Of a stretch of DNA of 64,000 bases, positions 1 to 10,520 are shown piece after piece. Each line of letters begins with the position of its first letter. The stretch's first letter is position 1. The DNA is from an uncultured delta proteobacterium (GTDB lineage Bacteria > Desulfobacterota > Desulfuromonadia > Desulfuromonadales > BM103). The position numbers and the translations under genes were made by a program. The stretch spans positions 32,001-96,000 of the forward strand of contig CAVQRZ010000006.1 in assembly GCA_963715335.1 (NCBI GenBank). Reading direction: 5' to 3'. The notes under the pieces are model-generated. The model did not search any database. It saw only the letters and a program-made list of their open reading frames with translations, and was not told the origin of the DNA.

Positions 1-657
1 AAGGATATGGCCGCAGTCGAAAGATTCCAGCAGGGTCCGATCGGCCAGGAAATGCTGGTATCGATGAAAGACAAAGGCTACATCGGCCTCGGCTACCTGC
101 ATAACGGCATGAAGGAAATTTCGGCCAACAGCCCGCTGCGGGTCCCGGCTGACGCCGCAGGCAAGAAGTTCCGCATCATGACCTCTGATGTTCTGGCTGC
201 CCAGTACGAAGCCGTAGGGGCCATGCCTCTGAAGAAGCCGTTCTCCGAGGTCTTCACCCTGCTGCAGACCAAGGCGATCGATGGCCAGGAGAACACCTGG
301 TCGAACATCTACTCGAAGAAATTCTTTGAAGTGCAGCCCTACATCACCCAGACTGACCATGGCGTTCTTGATTACCTGCTGGTGACCTCGACCGAGTTCT
401 GGATGGGCCTGCCGGACGATATCCGTACCGAAATCAAAAAGGCTCTCGACGAAGCGACGGCGTTCGGCAACAAAGTCTCCGAGGACAAGGCCATCGAAGA
501 CCGTCAGCTGATCATTGACTCCAAGCGTACCGAAGTCATCGTACTGACCGACGCCGAGCGTGCCCTGTGGGTTGAAGCCATGAAACCCGTCTGGAAGCAG
601 TTCGAGGACAAAATCGGCGCAGACAAGATCGAAGCCGCCGTCAAATCCAACATGTAA
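1..657 (+). CDS. dctP: TRAP transporter substrate-binding protein, DctP family (5'-truncated by window)
   Basis: Frame is open from base 1. Motifs G-K-K-F-R-I-M, PFSEVFTLLQTKAIDGQEN and KKFFEVQPY are typical of DctP; followed by dctQM. Confidence 0.92.
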   Translation, partial: KDMAAVERFQQGPIGQEMLVSMKDKGYIGLGYLHNGMKEISANSPLRVPADAAGKKFRIMTSDVLAAQYEAVGAMPLKKPFSEVFTLLQTKAIDGQENTWSNIYSKKFFEVQPYITQTDHGVLDYLLVTSTEFWMGLPDDIRTEIKKALDEATAFGNKVSEDKAIEDRQLIIDSKRTEVIVLTDAERALWVEAMKPVWKQFEDKIGADKIEAAVKSNM

Positions 658-673
658 GCGGACGTCACTTCAG

Positions 674-701
674 TCGCGGGCTCCGGAAACGGGGCCCGCG
701 A
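674..701 (+). terminator. GC-rich stem-loop between dctP and dctQ (partial terminator or mRNA stabiliser)
   Basis: tcgcgggctccg-GAAA-cggggcccgcga, 12-bp stem with one G-U pair, weak U-tail. Confidence 0.55.
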
Positions 702-747
702 ATTTCTATCTGATCTGAATCTGCATGATTTCTGGTAAGGATTAACT

Positions 748-1299
748 ATGCTCGGGATAATTAATAAACTGGAGGAAATCTTTATTTGCCTCCTACTCGC
801 ATCGATGACCTTACTGGTCTTTGTTGAGGTTGTGCTGCGCTTCGGCTTCGGCATCGGCTTGATGTGGTCCCAGGAACTGACCCTGCACCTCTCGGCCTGG
901 ATGGTTCTGTTCGGGGTCTCTTACGGGATCAAGGTCGGCTCTCACATCGGCGTCGATGCACTGGTCAAGGTCTTGCCTGCGACCGCCCGGAAAGTCGTCG
1001 GCTTTCTGGCAGTCTCTGCCTGCCTGGTCTACTGCGGCCTGTTTGCCAGCGGCGCCTGGGTCTATCTGAGCAAAATGCATCAGATCGGTATTGAACTTGA
1101 CGACATGCCCATTCAAAAATGGGTTGCCCACAGCATTCTGCTGATCGGTATGGTGCTGATGGCCATCCGCTTGCTGATGCTTTTGTGGGGAATTTTCACA
1201 GGCAAAAACGAAGGTTTCCAGCTGGCCGACGAAGCCAAGGAGAGCCTGCATCTGGCTGAGGAAACCAAGGCCGCTGCCCGGGGAGGAGATTCAGCATGA
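748..1299 (+). CDS. dctQ: TRAP small permease DctQ
   Basis: Four hydrophobic segments, WSQEL and GSHIGVD motifs; overlaps the dctM start (ATGA). Confidence 0.92.
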   Translation: MLGIINKLEEIFICLLLASMTLLVFVEVVLRFGFGIGLMWSQELTLHLSAWMVLFGVSYGIKVGSHIGVDALVKVLPATARKVVGFLAVSACLVYCGLFASGAWVYLSKMHQIGIELDDMPIQKWVAHSILLIGMVLMAIRLLMLLWGIFTGKNEGFQLADEAKESLHLAEETKAAARGGDSA

Positions 1300-2696
1300 C
1301 CACCGCCGCACTTTTTTTATTACTACTCCTCTGCCTGCTGACCGGCATGCCGATCGCGTTTGCCCTGGGTCTTTCCAGCATCACCACGATCCTGCTGTTT
1401 TCCAATGATTCGCTGGCCTCAATCGCACTGAAACTGCTGGAGGCCGAATCCGCACACTACACCCTGCTGGCGATCCCCTTTTTCATCCTCTCGTCGACCT
1501 TTTTGTCGACCGGCGGCGTCGCCACCCGGATTATCAATTTCGCCATCGACTGCGTCGGCTGGATTCGCGGCGGCCTGGCGATGGCCTCGGTTTTGGCCTG
1601 TATGATCTTTGCCGCGGTCTCCGGGTCCTCACCGGCAACGGTCGCCGCCATCGGCTCGATCGTCATTGCCGGCATGGTCCAGGCCGGCTACCCCAAGGCC
1701 ATGGCTGCCGGGGTGATCACCAATGCCGGCACACTGGGCATCCTGATTCCACCTTCGATTGTCATGCTGGTATACGCCGCGGCGACCGAAGAGTCAGCCG
1801 CGCGGCTCTTCATGGCCGGCTTCCTCCCGGGCCTTTTGATGGGCACCATGCTGATGATCGTCATCTACGTCGTCGCCCGGATCAAAAAACTGCCGGCCCA
1901 ACCTTGGGTCGGCTTCCCAAGCCTGATAAAATCAAGCTTCACCGCCAGCTGGGGGCTGATGCTGATCGTCATCGTGCTCGGCTCGATCTACGGCGGCATC
2001 TGCAGTCCGACCGAAGCAGCAGCCATCTCAGCCGTTTACGCCTTCTTCATTGCCATCTTTATTTATCGCGACATGGGCCCGCTCAAGGGAATGAAATGGC
2101 GCGAGCATGAAACTGACGGCATCCCCAAAATCGTCGTACGCAACCTGTGGCTGACCAGCAAAGCCCTGCCGCTGTCATTTTTCCATAAGGACACCAAAAA
2201 GGTGCTGATGGATTCCGCGAAAGTTTCCATTATGCTGCTCTTTATCATCGGCAACGCCATGCTCTTCGCGCATGTCCTGACCACCGAGCGGATTCCCCAT
2301 CACATCGCCGAAATCATCGTCGGCTGGGGCCTGCCCGCCTGGGGCTTCCTGATCGTCGTCAACCTGCTGCTGCTCGCCGCAGGCAACTTCATGGAACCAT
2401 CGGCAATCCTTCTGATCATGGCGCCGATCCTCTTCCCCATCGCCGTCAAATTGGGGATCGACCCGATCCACCTTGGCGTCATCATGGTCGTCAACATGGA
2501 GATCGGCATGATCACGCCGCCGGTTGGACTCAACCTGTTTGTCACCGCCGGAATAACCGGAGAAAACATCACGTGGGTCCTCAAAGCCGCACTCCCCTGG
2601 CTGCTGATCCTGCTGGTGTTCCTGATCATGATCACTTACATCCCACAGATCTCGTTGTGGCTCCCTGAGTATATTGATCATCTCAAGGGATATTGA
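1296..2696 (+). CDS. dctM: TRAP large permease DctM
   Basis: LLAIPFFIL, SGSSPAT, GILIPPSI, PTEAA and ITPPVGLNLFV motifs. Confidence 0.95.
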   Translation: MTTAALFLLLLLCLLTGMPIAFALGLSSITTILLFSNDSLASIALKLLEAESAHYTLLAIPFFILSSTFLSTGGVATRIINFAIDCVGWIRGGLAMASVLACMIFAAVSGSSPATVAAIGSIVIAGMVQAGYPKAMAAGVITNAGTLGILIPPSIVMLVYAAATEESAARLFMAGFLPGLLMGTMLMIVIYVVARIKKLPAQPWVGFPSLIKSSFTASWGLMLIVIVLGSIYGGICSPTEAAAISAVYAFFIAIFIYRDMGPLKGMKWREHETDGIPKIVVRNLWLTSKALPLSFFHKDTKKVLMDSAKVSIMLLFIIGNAMLFAHVLTTERIPHHIAEIIVGWGLPAWGFLIVVNLLLLAAGNFMEPSAILLIMAPILFPIAVKLGIDPIHLGVIMVVNMEIGMITPPVGLNLFVTAGITGENITWVLKAALPWLLILLVFLIMITYIPQISLWLPEYIDHLKGY

Positions 2697-2710
2697 TCGT
2701 TCCAACCTTC

Positions 2711-2739
2711 CAGGCGCGGGGAGATCCTCCCCGCGCCTG
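2711..2739 (+). terminator. Strong hairpin after dctM
   Basis: caggcgcggggag-atc-ctccccgcgcctg, perfect 13-bp stem; no clear U-tract. Confidence 0.5.
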
Positions 2740-2824
2740 ATTACAACAACGGCATTTATCAGTAGAATACTTTAAAAACAAGCTGAGCCTATCGAACCCT
2801 AGATGTTCTGCCTGGAGAGAAACC

Positions 2825-3313
2825 ATGCTGCCTTATTACGAGAATATTCTTTACGCAACCGACCTGACACCGAATTCTGAATACGCATTCAAGCACGCAA
2901 TCCTGCTGGCCAGGAAGTCACAGGCAAAAGTCCATTTGCTGCATGTCATCCCCGAAATCGATGCAGGTTTTCGCAGCTACGTCTCCGCAGTCATGGGCGC
3001 AGGAAAACTCGAAGCGTTTGAAGGTCAGCACGAAGAGCAGGCGCGGATTGCCTTGAAGGGGCGCCTTGAAAAATTTGCTCACGATGAGTTGGAAGATCGC
3101 CCCGAGGATCTGCAAAACATCGCGAGCATTGAAGTTGTTCATGGCCATGCGGTTTCTGAAATCCTACAGGCAGCAGATCGCCTGAAGGTCGATGTTATTG
3201 TCATGGGTACACACGGCAAAGGCACAATAGGGCACACCTTCCTCGGTAGCGTAGCTGAAAAAGTTTTGCACAAATCGAAAAAACCGGTTTTCGTTATTCC
3301 AATCCCCGATTAA
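2825..3313 (+). CDS. Universal stress protein (UspA family)
   Basis: ILYATD N-terminus; IVMGTHG...LGSVAEKVL motif; GGAG RBS. Confidence 0.93.
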   Translation: MLPYYENILYATDLTPNSEYAFKHAILLARKSQAKVHLLHVIPEIDAGFRSYVSAVMGAGKLEAFEGQHEEQARIALKGRLEKFAHDELEDRPEDLQNIASIEVVHGHAVSEILQAADRLKVDVIVMGTHGKGTIGHTFLGSVAEKVLHKSKKPVFVIPIPD

Positions 3314-3383: not shown

Positions 3384-3690
3384 TCATCGATCTTAAGCCC
3401 ATACTTGTCAGTATTGCCGCATCAATTATAGCATGGATACATCCTAAAACGCTGATATACTGCTGCAGTAAAGTCGTTTATGGTCGCGTTGGGGGCTTTT
3501 TTCATGTTTTCCAACCCCCACAAAAAGCCATTCCAATCAAGCAAAACCATTGCAATAATAGAACATTGTGTTTTAATCTTAAAATCCAGCATTCATGGGG
3601 GCTGTATTCCTTTGCCTGCAAAGGCAAGTTGTTAGTTACAAAATCGACCACAGCAAGCACCTGGCAACAACAACCCAAGAGGAGGAAAAG

Positions 3691-4686
3691 ATGAAAACTG
3701 TCACACGCACCCTGTCCCTGATCAGTGCGCTCGCACTGGTCGCAGCCTTTGCCCTGCCCAGCACGGCGCTCGCGGAAAAAACCCGTCTCGGTTTTGGCGG
3801 CGGCCCTGAAGGGGGCACCTTCCAGTACTTCTCCAACGGGATTGCTTCTCGCCTGTCGAAGATGATCCCCGATGTGGAAGTCTCCAACATGGCATCGGCC
3901 GGCTCGGTCGAAAACCTCCGCCGCGCCAATTCCGGCGAAATTGACTTCGGCATCTCCTATTCCGGCGACACCTATCTTGGTCGCAATGGCAAGTTGACCA
4001 ACGATACCACCGTATACCCCAATGTCATGGCCATGGCATTTCTTTACGGTGCTCCTGCCCATCTGGTCGTACTTGAGAAAAGCGGCATCAACACGGTTGC
4101 TGACCTCGAAGGCAAGCGCATTGCCGTTGGTGACTCAGGCTCCGGTGCCGCCGCCGCGGCCCAGCGTTATTTCAGCTCTATCGGCCTGTGGGATAAGATG
4201 AATGTCGAGTTCATCGGCTACAGCAAGGCCGCAGCAGCAATCGGTGACGGCCTGATCGACGCCATGTGGGTGTTTGCCGGTTTCCCCAACAGTTCGGTGA
4301 TCCAGGCAGCCGCCAGCAACAAGATCAAACTCCTCTCCACCTATGAAGCTGGGGAAAAGGGCGGCGCCTTTAAAGAGTACCCATTCTATGCCCCGCTGAC
4401 CATCCCTGCCGGCACCTACAGTGGGGTCGACTATGACGTCAAGTCCTTCCAGGATTCCGCCCTTTGGGTCGCCGGCAAGCATGTCGCTCCCGAGCACGTT
4501 TATGCGGCCCTGGCCAACATTTACACCGAGGATGGCCTCTCCTACATGGTCAAGGTCAAGAGCACGGCCAAGTCCATGTCGGTGGAAGGAGCCCTCACCG
4601 GCATCGTCACCCCGGTTCACCCCGGCGCTCAGAAGTTCTGGAAAGAGCAGGGTCTAACTCTGACCGAAGCACAAATGGGTATGTAA
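3691..4686 (+). CDS. TAXI-family TRAP solute receptor
   Basis: Start reassigned to ATG 3691 behind an AGGAGG RBS. Signal peptide ends ALA; motifs GGPEGGTF, SAGSVENL, VADLEGKRIAVG, TIPAGTYSG and PVHPGA. Confidence 0.92.
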   Translation: MKTVTRTLSLISALALVAAFALPSTALAEKTRLGFGGGPEGGTFQYFSNGIASRLSKMIPDVEVSNMASAGSVENLRRANSGEIDFGISYSGDTYLGRNGKLTNDTTVYPNVMAMAFLYGAPAHLVVLEKSGINTVADLEGKRIAVGDSGSGAAAAAQRYFSSIGLWDKMNVEFIGYSKAAAAIGDGLIDAMWVFAGFPNSSVIQAAASNKIKLLSTYEAGEKGGAFKEYPFYAPLTIPAGTYSGVDYDVKSFQDSALWVAGKHVAPEHVYAALANIYTEDGLSYMVKVKSTAKSMSVEGALTGIVTPVHPGAQKFWKEQGLTLTEAQMGM

Positions 4687-4804: not shown

Positions 4805-7402
4805 ATGGCTGAAGAACTCCAAGACGATTTAAAGGACCTCTCCGCTGAGGAAAAGGAAAAACTCAAGAAGCTGATGGAGAAGGACTCCAAGTCCTATCGG
4901 TCACCGACCGGACTCTTCAAATGGCTGGTCGCGGTGCTCGGTGCCAGCATGGTCCTCTTCTATTTCTATGCGGCCGGCATGGCTGCCGTCGCCACCAATT
5001 ATCATCTCGGGGTTTATGTCTTTGTCACCTACGTACTGGTCTTCCTGCTCTACCCGGCAGGCAAGGTCCGGATACGCATTCCGCTTTCGTTGATCATCGG
5101 CGGCATCTTCTCCTGCGCTATTGCAGCCCTGGGTTTCTTTGGCACCATCGACGAATTCCATGCGGCAATCACCAGCGGCAACGTGCGCCTGATCGTTGCC
5201 ATAACCATCGGAGGTCTCGTAATCGGCGCAGCCGCCATCTTAATAGACAATTTCATGATGCAGAGGTGGCCGAAAAATCCAACCCTCTCGGATATCCTCT
5301 ATGCCCTGACCTCTGCGGCAGTTGTCTACTACTGGATACACGAATTCGAAGTTCTCAATTATCGGGCCGGCGCTGAGACCAACCTTGACGCAATGGTCAG
5401 TATCGTCGGCATCATTCTCTCCCTGGAAGTCTGTCGACGGGTCCTCGGTTTGTCGATGACTTTTATCGGCGTTGCCATGTTCATCTACGGTTATCTCGGA
5501 CCGATTTTCCCGGAGATTATCGCCCACCGCGGTTTCGGTATCGAACGCCTGTGTACTGCTCTTTACCTGACAACCAACGGGGTCTTCGGGGTCATGGCCA
5601 ACGTTTTGGCGACCTACGTCATCCTGTTTATCTTTTTTGGCGCCTTCCTCCACAAGTCGGGGGCTGGAAAGTTCTTCATTGATTTTCCCCTGGCATTGGC
5701 CGGCCGCACCACCGGTGGTCCGGCGAAGGTTGCTGTGATTGCCTCGGCCTTCTTCGGTTCGGTCTCCGGAAGCGCGATTGCCAACACCGTCTCCACCGGC
5801 GCATTCACCATTCCGTTGATGAAACGCGCCGGTTTCAAGCCGCACGTTGCCGGTGCCATCGAACCCGCGGCCTCGATAGGCGGCATGTTCCTGCCACCGG
5901 TCATGGGCGCCGGCGGGTTCCTGATGGCTGAACTGACGGAAGTCTCTTACGCCTATATCATGATGATCGCTGTCTTCCCCGCCCTGCTCTACTTCTTCTC
6001 GGTCTTCTGCATGATTCACTTCGAGGCCAAGAAGCAGGGAATCAAGGGGATTGAGGACGAGGAATACCCTCCCTGGAAGGCCGTCCTGAAAAAGCAGTGG
6101 TATTACTCCCTGCCGTTATTCATCATCACGATCCTCATGATCATAGGGAAATCCCCCGGGATGGCGGCTTTCTGGTCTGCATTGTCATGTATTGTCGTCA
6201 GCTGGGTGAGGCAGGACAGGAAAGTCTCGTTAACGGACAGATTGATTTATCTCCCTTTTACGGTCCTGTTTATTTTGATTGTTCTGCTCGGCTTTATCGA
6301 GCTTCCAGTTAATGACTTGTTCGGATTTAAAATCCAATTTTTCATTTCTTTACTGGCAACGGTCTGGTGCCTGTTGGTCAGCGCTTTCCGTAAAGACATT
6401 GCGATGGATCTGAAAGGCATCTGGGCGGCGATCCTGACCGGCGCCAACAACACCCTGATCATCGGTGCCACGCTCGGTGTTATCGGCATCATCGTTGGCA
6501 CCATTTCCCTGACCGGCATCGGCCTCAAGTTCTCCGACATCATTATTTCGCTGGCCAGCGGCAACCTGTTCTTAGCGATAATACTGGTCGCGCTGGCTTC
6601 ACTGGTCCTCGGCATGGGTGTCCCGGTCACGGCAGCATACCTGATCACTGCAGTGCTCGCAGTCCCCCCTCTGATGGAGATGGGTGTACCCCTGCTCTGC
6701 GCTCACATGATCGTCTACTGGTTCAGCCAGGACTCGAACATCACGCCACCGGTTTGCGTGGCGGCTTACGCCGGAGCTGCGATTGCCGGATCTGATCCAT
6801 GGAAGACCGGCTGGACCAGTTTCAAGTTTGCCAAACTGCTCTACGTCATGCCGATTCTGTTTGCCTTCACCCCGGCAATCCTGTTCCAGCCACACACGGC
6901 CAACGTCAAGGTGCCAAAGCTCGGCGACATGCCTTTTGCATCGGTCGTTTCAGTGGCAGTCAAGGAGGGGGATCATATCAACGAGGGTGATGTCGTGGCC
7001 CAGATTATGATCGGTGACGAAATCCGCGATATCAAAGCGAAGCGGGGCGGCAACGTGACCGATGTCAAGATTTTCCCCGGCGGCATGGTCAATGCGAAAG
7101 AAACGATCATCGAAGCCAATGATCCGGCAACCGGGCTGCAGACTGCGTCTTCCTTCTTCTCGGCGGTGCTGGGGACGATTGCCTTCTCGGCGACAACCAT
7201 GTTCTTCTGGTTCCGTCGCACCACACTCTTTGAGTGGGTTTTTCTGGCAGTCGGCACCGTATTTCTATACTGGCCGACACTGATAACGGATGCGATCGGC
7301 ATTGCCCTGGTTGGCATGGTCATCTTCATGCAGATCAACAAGAACAAGAAAGAGCACGGATCTATGCTGGCGCCTAAAATCGGAGCGGAGGGGGCCGGGT
7401 GA
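4805..7402 (+). CDS. TRAP fused 4TM/12TM permease (TAXI-associated) with inserted lipoyl/biotinyl-like domain
   Basis: GGPAKVAV, SGSAIANTVSTG, PPVMGAGGFLMAE, LGMGVPVTAAY and ITPPVCVAAYA motifs; soluble ~72-aa insert near the C-terminus. Confidence 0.93.
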   Translation: MAEELQDDLKDLSAEEKEKLKKLMEKDSKSYRSPTGLFKWLVAVLGASMVLFYFYAAGMAAVATNYHLGVYVFVTYVLVFLLYPAGKVRIRIPLSLIIGGIFSCAIAALGFFGTIDEFHAAITSGNVRLIVAITIGGLVIGAAAILIDNFMMQRWPKNPTLSDILYALTSAAVVYYWIHEFEVLNYRAGAETNLDAMVSIVGIILSLEVCRRVLGLSMTFIGVAMFIYGYLGPIFPEIIAHRGFGIERLCTALYLTTNGVFGVMANVLATYVILFIFFGAFLHKSGAGKFFIDFPLALAGRTTGGPAKVAVIASAFFGSVSGSAIANTVSTGAFTIPLMKRAGFKPHVAGAIEPAASIGGMFLPPVMGAGGFLMAELTEVSYAYIMMIAVFPALLYFFSVFCMIHFEAKKQGIKGIEDEEYPPWKAVLKKQWYYSLPLFIITILMIIGKSPGMAAFWSALSCIVVSWVRQDRKVSLTDRLIYLPFTVLFILIVLLGFIELPVNDLFGFKIQFFISLLATVWCLLVSAFRKDIAMDLKGIWAAILTGANNTLIIGATLGVIGIIVGTISLTGIGLKFSDIIISLASGNLFLAIILVALASLVLGMGVPVTAAYLITAVLAVPPLMEMGVPLLCAHMIVYWFSQDSNITPPVCVAAYAGAAIAGSDPWKTGWTSFKFAKLLYVMPILFAFTPAILFQPHTANVKVPKLGDMPFASVVSVAVKEGDHINEGDVVAQIMIGDEIRDIKAKRGGNVTDVKIFPGGMVNAKETIIEANDPATGLQTASSFFSAVLGTIAFSATTMFFWFRRTTLFEWVFLAVGTVFLYWPTLITDAIGIALVGMVIFMQINKNKKEHGSMLAPKIGAEGAG

Positions 7403-7845
7403 TGAAACAGTTCGACAACATCCTGTTTGCCACTGACTTTTCTAACGCATCAGCGCCTGCCGCCGATTACGCAATCACCCTGGCAAAGTTGACTGGTGCG
7501 CACTTGCATGTCCTCCACGTGATCAACGAGCTCGATGAACCCCAGCGGGTCATGATCCCACGGGAGGCGTTCCTGATCCTGGAAAAGGAAATCGAGGTTC
7601 AGGCCATCAGGGAACTGGAAAGGTTCTGCAAAGGGCCTGCGGCAGGGGTAAACACGACCAGCTATGCAGTGGTCGGTGCCGCGTTCCAGAAGATTCTCGA
7701 GACCGGCGCCAAGGTTAATGCCGACCTGATCGTCATGGGAACGCACGGGCGTACCGGGATCGAGCAGGTAATCGTCGGCAGTACCGCGGAACGGGTGGTC
7801 AGGCGATCAAAGATTCCGGTTCTGACCGTACGCTCTCAAGACTGA
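7399..7845 (+). CDS. Universal stress protein (UspA family)
   Basis: ILFATDFS; IVMGTHGRTG...GSTAERVVR; start (GTG 7399 or ATG 7402) overlaps the permease stop. Confidence 0.93.
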   Translation: MMKQFDNILFATDFSNASAPAADYAITLAKLTGAHLHVLHVINELDEPQRVMIPREAFLILEKEIEVQAIRELERFCKGPAAGVNTTSYAVVGAAFQKILETGAKVNADLIVMGTHGRTGIEQVIVGSTAERVVRRSKIPVLTVRSQD

Positions 7846-7850
7846 CACGA

Positions 7851-7888
7851 AAAAGAGGCGGGGCCAAAAGCTCCGCCTCTTACTTTTT
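7851..7888. terminator. Bidirectional terminator between convergent genes
   Basis: aagaggcggggc-caaaa-gctccgcctctt flanked by A-run and T-rich tail. Confidence 0.7.
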
Positions 7889-9521: not shown

Positions 9522-10247
9522 TCAGTCTTCGTCGAAACAGGTCCCGGCAATCAGGGTCACTGGTGCCTCAAGATAACTTTTCAACGAATCAAGGAATTCC
9601 GCAGCATCTGCACCATCAAGAATCCTGTGATCTGCGGAGAGTGTTAAGCGCACCATGGGTGCCACCACAAGCTCTTCATGCTCATCGACAACCACTTCTC
9701 CTTTGACGGTCCCCACGGCCAGGACCGCAGCCTGTGGTGGTGTGATAATGGCTGCAAAGGACTCCACTCCAAGCATGCCCATGTTACTGACAGTAAACGT
9801 CCCCCCATCCTGGTCATCGTCGGTGAGTTGGCCAAGGTGTGCCTTCTCAGCAAGCGCAGAAGCTGATACGCTAATTTGCTTCAGCGAGAGGCGTTCAAGA
9901 TTTTTGATCACCGGGTAGTAGAGCCCGCCTTCCGTTGCGACGGCCATGGCCAGGTTGATATGCTCCTGCTCGACTGCTGCACTTTCTGCCCATAGGCTAT
10001 TCACCCAGGGGTGCTCCTTGAGCGCTGCCGCAGTGGCCGCCAGGACGAAATCGTTGATCGTTATCCCCAGGTCTTTGCGGAAACGGATAACATCCGTCAT
10101 ATCGACCGCTACAGTCACAAAGAAATGCGGCTTGTTCTGCCAACTGTCAACCATCTTGCGCTCGATCAGTCGGCGAATGCGTACGGCTTTTTTGTTATTA
10201 TGGCCAGTTTCACCCTGTGGACCGTTTTTATTGCCTGGTTCGGGCAT
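9522..10247 (-). CDS. Dihydrolipoamide acyltransferase (E2) catalytic domain only
   Basis: PHFFVT, TINDF, GGTFTVSNMG, IITPPQAAVL and intact catalytic DHRILDG; start ATG 10247 behind AAAGGA; no lipoyl or E3-binding domain. Confidence 0.88.
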   Translation of the reverse strand: MPEPGNKNGPQGETGHNNKKAVRIRRLIERKMVDSWQNKPHFFVTVAVDMTDVIRFRKDLGITINDFVLAATAAALKEHPWVNSLWAESAAVEQEHINLAMAVATEGGLYYPVIKNLERLSLKQISVSASALAEKAHLGQLTDDDQDGGTFTVSNMGMLGVESFAAIITPPQAAVLAVGTVKGEVVVDEHEELVVAPMVRLTLSADHRILDGADAAEFLDSLKSYLEAPVTLIAGTCFDED

Positions 10248-10520
10248 GTCAGTCATCCTTTCAAACCGCAAAAATATTCAGGAATATTCACCCTGTAATG
10301 GGGATAAATTTGACAACTATTGTAATAGAGGTGCCCTTTAAATACGACCCTAAACAAACATGAGGCCACCACAACCCTTAAACACGGCGCCAGGCAGAGA
10401 GAGAACAGAAGTTGAAAGATGAAAATTAGCTGGTTTATTTGACGCTGTACAGGTCTGTTTGGGTAAGACACGAGAGGTTAAACAGGGAGTGGGAAGTTAC
10501 ACGATTGAAAAGAGAAAAGC

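What the first reader, a model, noticed from the sequence alone, without database searches (positions are those of the whole stretch)
6902..7117. Lipoyl/biotinyl-like domain, lacking the acceptor lysine, embedded in a TRAP permease
Seen: NVKVPKLGDMPFASVVSVAVKEGDHINEGDVVAQIMIGDEIRDIKAKRGGNVTDVKIFPGGMVNAKETIIEA sits between two TM helices. It follows the pattern of E2 lipoyl domains (VKVP.lG...V.VK.GD.V..GD.l..l...[DKA]...I.A...G.V..I....G..V), but IGDEI replaces the DKA/MKM turn, so it should not be lipoylated or biotinylated. Positive-inside flanks (WKTG..FKFAK before the preceding helix, RRTT after the next) suggest the domain is periplasmic. I know of no described TRAP permease with this domain. 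Inference: a co-opted beta-sandwich acting as a docking site for the TAXI receptor or another partner.
Basis: partly seen in the sequence, partly recalled or inferred. Interest (0 to 1): 0.75.

Follow-up and report, generated by a model that had tools for sequence, protein, structure and literature searches.

The report
Lysine-less lipoyl domain on TAXI transporter
A widespread family of bacterial nutrient-uptake transporters carries a borrowed enzyme module (a lipoyl-type domain) that lacks the lysine needed for its original job and is predicted to sit on the outer face of the membrane, where it likely helps the transporter hold its binding protein.

Summary
Observation confirmed. Residues 700-771 of an 865-aa TAXI-TRAP fused permease are a lipoyl/biotinyl-fold domain: Pfam PF00364 above cut-off, AF2 pLDDT 94.5, Z 12-13 to solved lipoyl and biotinyl domains. 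G-D-E replaces D-K-A, and 0 of 250 distinct homologous inserts have Lys at the acceptor site.

It is a clean insertion of about 78 aa in the short loop after the last DctM helix. It is not the DUF3394 'claw', which lies two helices later; none of 303 carriers has a claw. Homology and charge pattern put it in the periplasm. It marks a family found in at least four phyla, is under purifying selection (dN/dS about 0.15), and keeps subfamily-invariant motifs at the tip that lipoyl domains use to bind partners.

Best reading (0.5): a second, independently recruited claw that rides on the elevator domain and helps dock the TAXI receptor. This step is inferred only. Against it: close relatives lack the domain, the receptor shows no matching changes, and lipoprotein receptors pair with it too. 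Not found in the literature searched. New variant of a known kind; interest 0.45.

The parts
3691..4686 (+). TAXI solute-binding protein, 331 aa; N-terminus looks like a cleavable signal peptide (A-L-A, no lipobox Cys; read by eye)
   Evidence: TIGR02122 212 bits; PF16868; relatives 1US4 and 8S4J; AGGAGG at 3680-3685
4805..7402 (+). TAXI-TRAP fused (DctQM-type) permease, 865 aa
   Evidence: TIGR02123 596 bits; DctM PF06808; full-length model matches IseQM and SiaQM
6836..6886 (+). Last DctM transmembrane helix and the short helix after it (res 678-694); equivalent to the C-terminus of SiaQM
   Evidence: alignment to 8Y4W and 7QE5 ends here; hydropathy
6893..7129 (+). Inserted lipoyl-type domain (res about 697-775; core 700-771 = 6902-7117)
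   Evidence: absent at this site in sister permeases
6932..6940 (+). P710-F711-A712 motif in the beta1-beta2 surface loop (M-G-A/G in the second subfamily)
   Evidence: P 119, F 120, A 120 of 120 (counted); M/G in 20 of 20 of the second subfamily
7013..7021 (+). G737-D738-E739 turn in place of D-K-A; D738 is the acceptor-lysine position
   Evidence: D 137, E 92, G 14, other 7, K 0 of 250
7133..7339 (+). TAXI-type three-helix C-terminal extension; the loop where VcGluQM-type permeases carry the DUF3394 claw is only about 6 aa here (res 824-829, 7274-7291)
   Evidence: AF2 helices 777-799, 808-822, 826-855; alignment with four claw-bearing permeases
7399..7845 (+). Universal stress protein, overlapping the permease stop; a second Usp lies at 2825-3313
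   Evidence: PF00582; this Usp has a match in 50 of 80 related loci
7853..7881 (+). Terminator-like hairpin closing the SBP-permease-Usp unit
   Evidence: 12-pair stem plus T run; consensus match only

Best explanation
A lipoyl-type domain without the acceptor lysine is inserted right after the last core helix of a TAXI-TRAP permease, is predicted to face the periplasm, and likely works as a protein-binding appendage that helps dock the TAXI receptor, as the unrelated claw domain is proposed to do. Steps: (1) shown: fold, absence of Lys, insertion site, family-wide conservation. (2) Inferred: origin by one insertion of an E2-type lipoyl domain, whose adjacent N- and C-termini fit a short loop. 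(3) Inferred: it rides on the elevator (transport) domain, with the former lipoyl-lysine tip pointing away from the membrane. (4) Inferred: that tip, now hydrophobic plus acidic (F711 or M, M/L735, D/E738), touches the docked receptor and lengthens or steadies the hand-over of substrate. It would be an enhancer, not an essential part. Substrate unknown; a C4-dicarboxylate is a weak guess from neighbours.
For: Clean insertion: the loop is 16-21 aa in 13 permeases without the domain and 92-101 aa in 68 with it. Both termini lie on one side and the Lys turn on the opposite sheet, and the beta1-beta2 loop beside that turn is the E1-binding surface (PMC6270654 passages). Those two elements carry the family's non-core invariants: PFA 119-120 of 120; in the second subfamily D736 114, G737 113, D/E738 114, D708 113 of 114. 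Tip columns are more conserved than the rest: 0.70 vs 0.53 and 0.71 vs 0.61. Purifying selection: pooled dN/dS 0.15 over 17 pairs. Precedent: the DUF3394 claw, in the neighbouring periplasmic loop of the same three-helix extension attached to the transport domain, is modelled to contact the receptor (PMC11574862). The two domains do not co-occur: 0 of 303 carriers has a claw-length tail, and the one claw-bearing permease read across this site (L173) has a short loop there. No stand-alone form found: 2 hits among 246 candidates of 41-139 aa, on 601- and 914-base contigs, one clearly a permease fragment.
Against: Six intact permeases among the 80 loci lack the domain, five of them nested among carriers, so it is probably dispensable. 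No receptor position changes together with loss in both domain-less lineages except one (230) that carries the family's majority residue. Only two conservative receptor changes (V73L, I175L) separate the PFA and MGA subfamilies. Eight carriers pair with lipoprotein receptors and the domain-less permeases pair with non-lipoprotein ones, so the 'compensates for an untethered receptor' idea of PMC11574862 does not fit. The domain evolves faster than receptor (0.08) and core (0.04). The claw-receptor contact is itself only a model.
Confidence: 0.5

Rival explanations
1. The domain binds something other than the receptor. Candidates are the permease's own periplasmic face (a brace or lid coupled to elevator motion), a second permease copy, another periplasmic protein, or a cation at its acidic tip.
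For: Invariant acidic tip residues in one subfamily; median net charge -6 over 250 inserts; no receptor co-variation. Permease residues next to the junction do track the subfamily or presence of the domain (Q/E695, F/M784, S783). TRAP and TAXI permeases self-associate (PMC10942642 passages). A porin gene lies nearby in 11 of 80 loci.
Against: The tip points away from the attachment points (geometry). The porin is found only with the MGA subfamily, and a domain of about 3 nm cannot span the periplasm (own knowledge). No conserved third partner gene except the cytoplasmic Usp.
Confidence: 0.22
2. A tolerated passenger: a stable little fold inserted once into a permissive loop and kept folded only because a misfolded insert would harm the permease.
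For: Weakest constraint of the regions measured (dN/dS 0.15; mean column identity 48% vs 79% for the receptor). Apparent clean loss in L089 and L146, which keep carrier-clade residues on both sides of the junction. Most columns conserved across both subfamilies are glycines and core residues.
Against: Kept in 68 of 74 rows of its clade across several phyla although a clean deletion is evidently viable. Subfamily-invariant residues at surface-equivalent positions (F711; D708, D736, E738).
Confidence: 0.2
3. The domain faces the cytoplasm and couples the transporter to metabolism, for example to the Usp or to the neighbouring E2 catalytic-domain protein.
For: An E2 catalytic-domain-only gene lies 2.1 kb away, and full pdhABC lies beside the transporter in 4 of 21 stretches.
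Against: Basic loops before and after the flanking helices. Parity with the periplasmic claw two helices later. The E2 neighbour is present in only 14 of 80 loci, all apparently Desulfuromonadales-type.
Confidence: 0.05
4. It is still a cofactor carrier (lipoate or biotin) in this protein or its relatives.
For: Fold and Pfam match; Lys at the +1 position in 12 of 250.
Against: 0 of 250 have Lys at the tip. A Lys moved one place off the tip is not lipoylated (PMC6270654). The ligases are cytoplasmic (own knowledge).
Confidence: 0.02
5. It is the ordinary DUF3394 claw under another name.
For: Homologues give weak PF11874 hits.
Against: Those hits cover profile positions 5-52 only, the two helices after the insert. 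The claw sits in a different loop. Profile-profile comparison: probability 0.1%, E 0.5.
Confidence: 0.01

Closest known systems
TAXI-TRAP fused permeases with the three-helix C-terminal extension (P. mirabilis PMI1055; V. cholerae VcGluQM; PMC11574862)
   Same: TAXI receptor + fused permease + Usp gene order; DctM core; three-helix extension.
   Different: About 78-aa lipoyl-fold insert between the core and the extension; none was described for these proteins in the passages read.
DUF3394 (PF11874) 'claw' of VcGluQM
   Same: Small beta-rich domain in a periplasmic loop of the extension attached to the transport domain; present in only some TAXI clades.
   Different: Different loop (last two helices vs before the first), unrelated sequence, about 110 aa and weakly PDZ-like rather than lipoyl-like.
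E2 lipoyl domains of 2-oxoacid dehydrogenases (1LAB, 1GHJ, 7B9K)
   Same: Fold, length, long beta1-beta2 loop starting at a conserved Pro; 114 of the 150 best profile hits in 1.84 billion representatives carry an E2-type DK-like motif.
   Different: No D-K-A; hydrophobic residue at the -3 position where E2 has Glu/Gln; membrane-tethered at both ends; predicted periplasmic.
Biotin carboxyl carrier domains (2D5D, 1Z6H)
   Same: Fold; top structural scores, Z 12.6-13.1, within about 1 of E2 domains.
   Different: No M-K-M; has the long loop BCCPs lack; falls with E2 domains, apart from BCCPs, in a 79-column tree (99/96).
Barrel-sandwich hybrid (lipoyl) domain of periplasmic adaptor proteins (EmrA, CusB, AcrA)
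   Same: Lys-less lipoyl fold in the periplasm (Z 10-11.4): precedent for non-cofactor use.
   Different: In adaptors the two halves are split by a long hairpin (e.g. 4tko aligned range 43-276); here the domain is continuous and part of the transporter chain.

Membership tests
TAXI-TRAP fused permease | Fused 4TM/12TM permease above family cut-off | tested here: met
   TIGR02123 596 vs 320.65
TAXI-TRAP fused permease | Adjacent TAXI-type receptor gene | tested here: met
   TIGR02122 212 vs 84; receptor found in 75 of 80 loci
TAXI-TRAP fused permease | Three-helix C-terminal extension | tested here: met
   AF2 helices; aligns with DUF3394 helices
TAXI-TRAP fused permease | Receptor-dependent, ion-driven uptake | not testable with these tools
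   needs a transport assay
Biotin_lipoyl fold (PF00364) | Score above gathering threshold | tested here: met
   26.4 vs 22.1
Biotin_lipoyl fold (PF00364) | Continuous barrel-sandwich hybrid fold | tested here: met
   (predicted model)
Functional lipoyl domain | Lys at the tip of the beta4-beta5 turn (D-K-A) | tested here: not met
   D738; 0 of 250
Functional lipoyl domain | Long beta1-beta2 surface loop | tested here: met
   ungapped profile alignment to 1LAB and 1GHJ
Functional biotinyl domain (BCCP) | A-M-K-M motif | tested here: not met
DUF3394 claw | Globular domain between the last two helices | tested here: not met
   loop about 6 aa; 0 of 303 carriers with a claw-length tail
DUF3394 claw | Sequence similarity to the claw | tested here: not met
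   hhalign probability 0.1%; no PF11874 hit for P0002 at E<=0.1
DUF3394 claw | Contact with the docked receptor (works-like test) | tested here: inconclusive
   co-variation scans found no signal; positional analogy only
Periplasmic adaptor (MFP) lipoyl domain | Two half-domains split by an alpha-hairpin, with beta-barrel and MP domains | tested here: not met
   continuous 72 aa; only sub-threshold HlyD_3 hit

The most novel reading that the evidence does not exclude
TAXI permeases have at least twice, independently, grafted a small foreign beta-domain onto neighbouring periplasmic loops of the elevator-linked extension: a PDZ-like claw in one clade and an E2 lipoyl domain in this one. The lipoyl domain's old E1-binding tip has been retooled as a moving grip that holds or prises open the receptor in step with the elevator, a step of TAXI transport that DctP-type TRAPs do not have.
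Probability: 0.3. Interest if true: 0.65.

Novelty: new variant of a known kind. Interest (0 to 1): 0.45.

Why it matters
No TAXI membrane component had a solved structure as of PMC11574862 (2024), none surfaced in the PDB searches here, and the role of the claw is open. A second, unrelated domain in the neighbouring loop, never found together with the claw, suggests a recurring need at that spot. It also offers a natural experiment: close carrier and non-carrier pairs and a natural deletion junction (L146, L089) for testing what periplasmic appendages do in receptor hand-over. It is a clear case of a metabolic cofactor-carrier domain reused without its cofactor. It also warns annotators that a DctM + PF00364 architecture does not mean a biotin- or lipoate-dependent transporter.

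Tried and rejected
Complex prediction of domain (A3) with receptor (A4): no answer, scores 0.06 and 0.10 against a mark of 0.32, controls not folded; no evidence either way. Monophyly test of carriers: free tree needs 3-4 changes, but AU p = 0.16, so secondary loss is likely but not proven; 15 rows were skipped from the first tree as fragments, frameshifts or motif misses, and the second used 37 of 81 rows. Neighbouring pdhC as donor: its lipoyl domain is the top-scoring true lipoyl domain for the broad profile (54.6 bits) and ranks 1-3 for the MGA profile, but the tree puts the TRAP domains outside the E2 clade, not beside it (79 columns, 36 of 58 TRAP rows); not supported. Correlation with untethered receptors: rejected. 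Receptor co-variation with loss or subfamily: no signal. ESM Atlas on homologue P0077: best 0.76, lead only. Sequencing runs: no run held half the words; the one RNA run gave scattered contigs, mostly over the receptor and none over 6912-7055; uninformative. Full-length AF2 model is mediocre (pLDDT 69, pTM 0.61; domain 79-86, linkers 57-68), so it was not used for domain placement. PMC10942642 passages did not state where the SiaQM C-terminus lies. Roden et al. 2023 is not held. Earlier scan notes: nothing returned.

Full report
1. The observation. The ORF is a TRAP fused permease (TIGR02123, 596 bits). It is preceded by a TAXI receptor (TIGR02122) and followed by a Usp and a terminator-like hairpin. 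The segment scores above the PF00364 cut-off. A profile of 22 family members aligns without gaps to the E2p lipoyl domain 1LAB (E 5e-9) and puts G737-D738-E739 on D-K-A. The domain model has pLDDT 94.5. It superposes on biotinyl and lipoyl domains at Z 12-13, rmsd 1.1-1.5 over 69-73 residues, and on adaptor-protein lipoyl domains at Z 10-11.4.

2. It is a family trait. A search with residues 660-820 found 831 proteins at E<=0.001, of which I saw the best 120; all 120 carry the insert. A second search from a distant member found 189, of which I saw 120. In the window's class, 47 of 251 genomes match at E<=1e-8, all in the window's order. In a phylum-wide sample only 3 of 301 match across the whole query. 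Of 80 loci from species genomes (best 80 of 202), 66 have a full insert, 6 intact permeases lack it, and 8 are fragments or frameshifted (two rows mis-flagged are carriers). Carriers occur in Desulfobacterota, Gammaproteobacteria (Woeseiaceae), one alphaproteobacterium, Acidobacteriota and Eisenbacteria. Source names add Krumholzibacteria, Gemmatimonadetes and Deferrisoma. There are two subfamilies, with P-F-A or M-G-A/G in the beta1-beta2 loop. Of 320 records examined, 303 had a full insert (250 distinct) and 17 were not counted. The acceptor position is D 137, E 92, G 14, other 7, K 0; 12 have K one place later. A Lys off the tip is not lipoylated (PMC6270654, passages).

3. Where it sits. 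Sister permeases have a 16-21-aa loop where carriers have 92-101 aa. The insert starts where SiaQM ends, before the three-helix extension that PMC11574862 describes as TAXI-specific and attached to the transport domain (passages and Discussion part 1). [quoted passage not shown] Two helices separate that loop from ours, so both are on the same side. The K/R pattern agrees. The periplasmic location is therefore an inference from parity and charge, not a measurement. Four claw-bearing permeases carry about 110 aa where this protein has about 6, and L173 has a short loop at the lipoyl site. The two domains are unrelated. None of 303 carriers has a claw-length tail.

4. Origin. Of the 150 best hits of the domain profile, 114 carry an E2-type DK-like motif, 20 a biotinyl motif, 3 are TRAP family by motif and 13 are unclassified, two of them family fragments. 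In a short tree the TRAP domains form one group (89/73) on the E2 side of the E2/BCCP split. One insertion of an E2-type domain is the simplest reading. Lipoyl domains have their two termini side by side, which suits a loop insertion. On core trees the domain-less L089/L146 and L139/L147/L148 nest among carriers. L089 and L146 keep carrier-type residues on both sides of the junction (T689, F694, S783), which suggests clean loss. L139/L147/L148 look outgroup-like there and may be ancestral or recombinant. The test of carrier monophyly did not reject it (p 0.16).

5. Selection. Pooled Nei-Gojobori dN/dS over 17 close pairs, some saturated: domain 0.15, tail 0.12, receptor 0.08, core 0.04. Conservation beyond glycines and core falls on the beta1-beta2 loop and the beta4-beta5 turn. 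In E2 these two lie together, opposite the termini, and form the E1-binding face. Assigning these residues to the surface rests on homology; I had no model coordinates.

6. Mechanism. Best reading (0.5): an accessory grip for the receptor, riding on the elevator-linked extension like the claw. In favour: position, non-overlap with the claw, a conserved partner-binding tip and purifying selection. Against: domain-less close relatives; no matching receptor changes; 8 carriers pair with lipobox-bearing receptors while domain-less permeases do not. Rivals: another partner or an intramolecular brace (0.22), a folded passenger (0.2), cytoplasmic coupling (0.05), cofactor carrier (0.02), DUF3394 (0.01). 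The substrate is unknown. Malic enzyme lies beside the transporter in 3 of 80 loci, an AEC-type permease in 7, a DctPQM system in about 5. This hints weakly at C4-dicarboxylates.

7. Novelty. I found no description. Searches: TAXI + TRAP transporter + DUF3394 (2 versions of one paper); three of TRAP/TAXI/lipoyl domain/barrel-sandwich/biotinyl (3 papers, 2 listed, both unrelated); (nothing relevant in the listings); TAXI + lipoyl + permease (0 papers). 'Lipoyl' does not occur in the main text of PMC11574862 or of bioRxiv 2024.11.27.625746 (passages seen). The library lacks most subscription papers. I did not see the supplements of PMC11574862 (59-TAXI survey) or of the preprints, nor Roden et al. 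2023; these could mention such an insert. The architecture is visible in precomputed Pfam calls, so databases already show it without comment. Verdict: a real, apparently undescribed domain architecture in a known transporter family; new variant of a known kind; interest 0.45.

Noticed in passing
window 9522-10271 (-): E2 catalytic-domain-only gene (PF00198, DHRILDG kept, no lipoyl or binding domain). An E2 match lies in 14 of 80 loci, mostly as short ORFs of about 240-300 codons and 67-93% identity. The orthologue in G196 (67.6%) is a full E2 in a pdhA-pdhB-pdhC operon; full operons lie beside the transporter in 4 of 21 stretches. The window's genome gave no tblastn hit to those E1 subunits. 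A retained stand-alone acyltransferase core of unknown role.
   Followed up: partly
L173:1642-1965, L174, L175 (DUF3394 claw): The claw looks like a circularly permuted PDZ domain: PDZ_2 E 0.0012 and 0.033 in 2 of 3; profile hits the CtpB PDZ in two swapped pieces, E 0.017. 'PDZ' does not occur in the main text of PMC11574862. Weak statistics.
   Followed up: partly
L150:1169-3811 (-), L151:1578-4223 (+): TAXI permeases of 881-882 codons with another large C-terminal soluble domain of about 270 aa and no Pfam match.
   Followed up: partly
P0300 (1234 aa): Carrier permease fused to a downstream Porin_O_P protein that still has its own signal peptide; single cluster member. Probably a lost stop or sequence error. 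The porin gene is a neighbour in 11 of 80 loci, all of the MGA subfamily.
   Followed up: partly
L131 (Kiloniellaceae) permease insert: The lipoyl-turn hairpin is extended by about 8 residues, where adaptor proteins carry their alpha-hairpin.
   Followed up: no
window about 6200-6420 (permease res about 470-535): A two-helix insertion of about 60 aa in the 860-aa forms, absent from the 800-aa forms of the same family.
   Followed up: no
window 7-3313: A DctPQM TRAP system plus Usp directly upstream of the TAXI unit; in most relatives prs-ispE lies there instead.
   Followed up: partly
L078, L094, L133, G461, G319: Frameshifted or split permease copies, two of them broken inside the insert; assembly error or decay not distinguished.
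   Followed up: no
L160, L161, L163, L164, L172: A second, more distant TAXI receptor gene (42-45% identity) follows the Usp.
   Followed up: no
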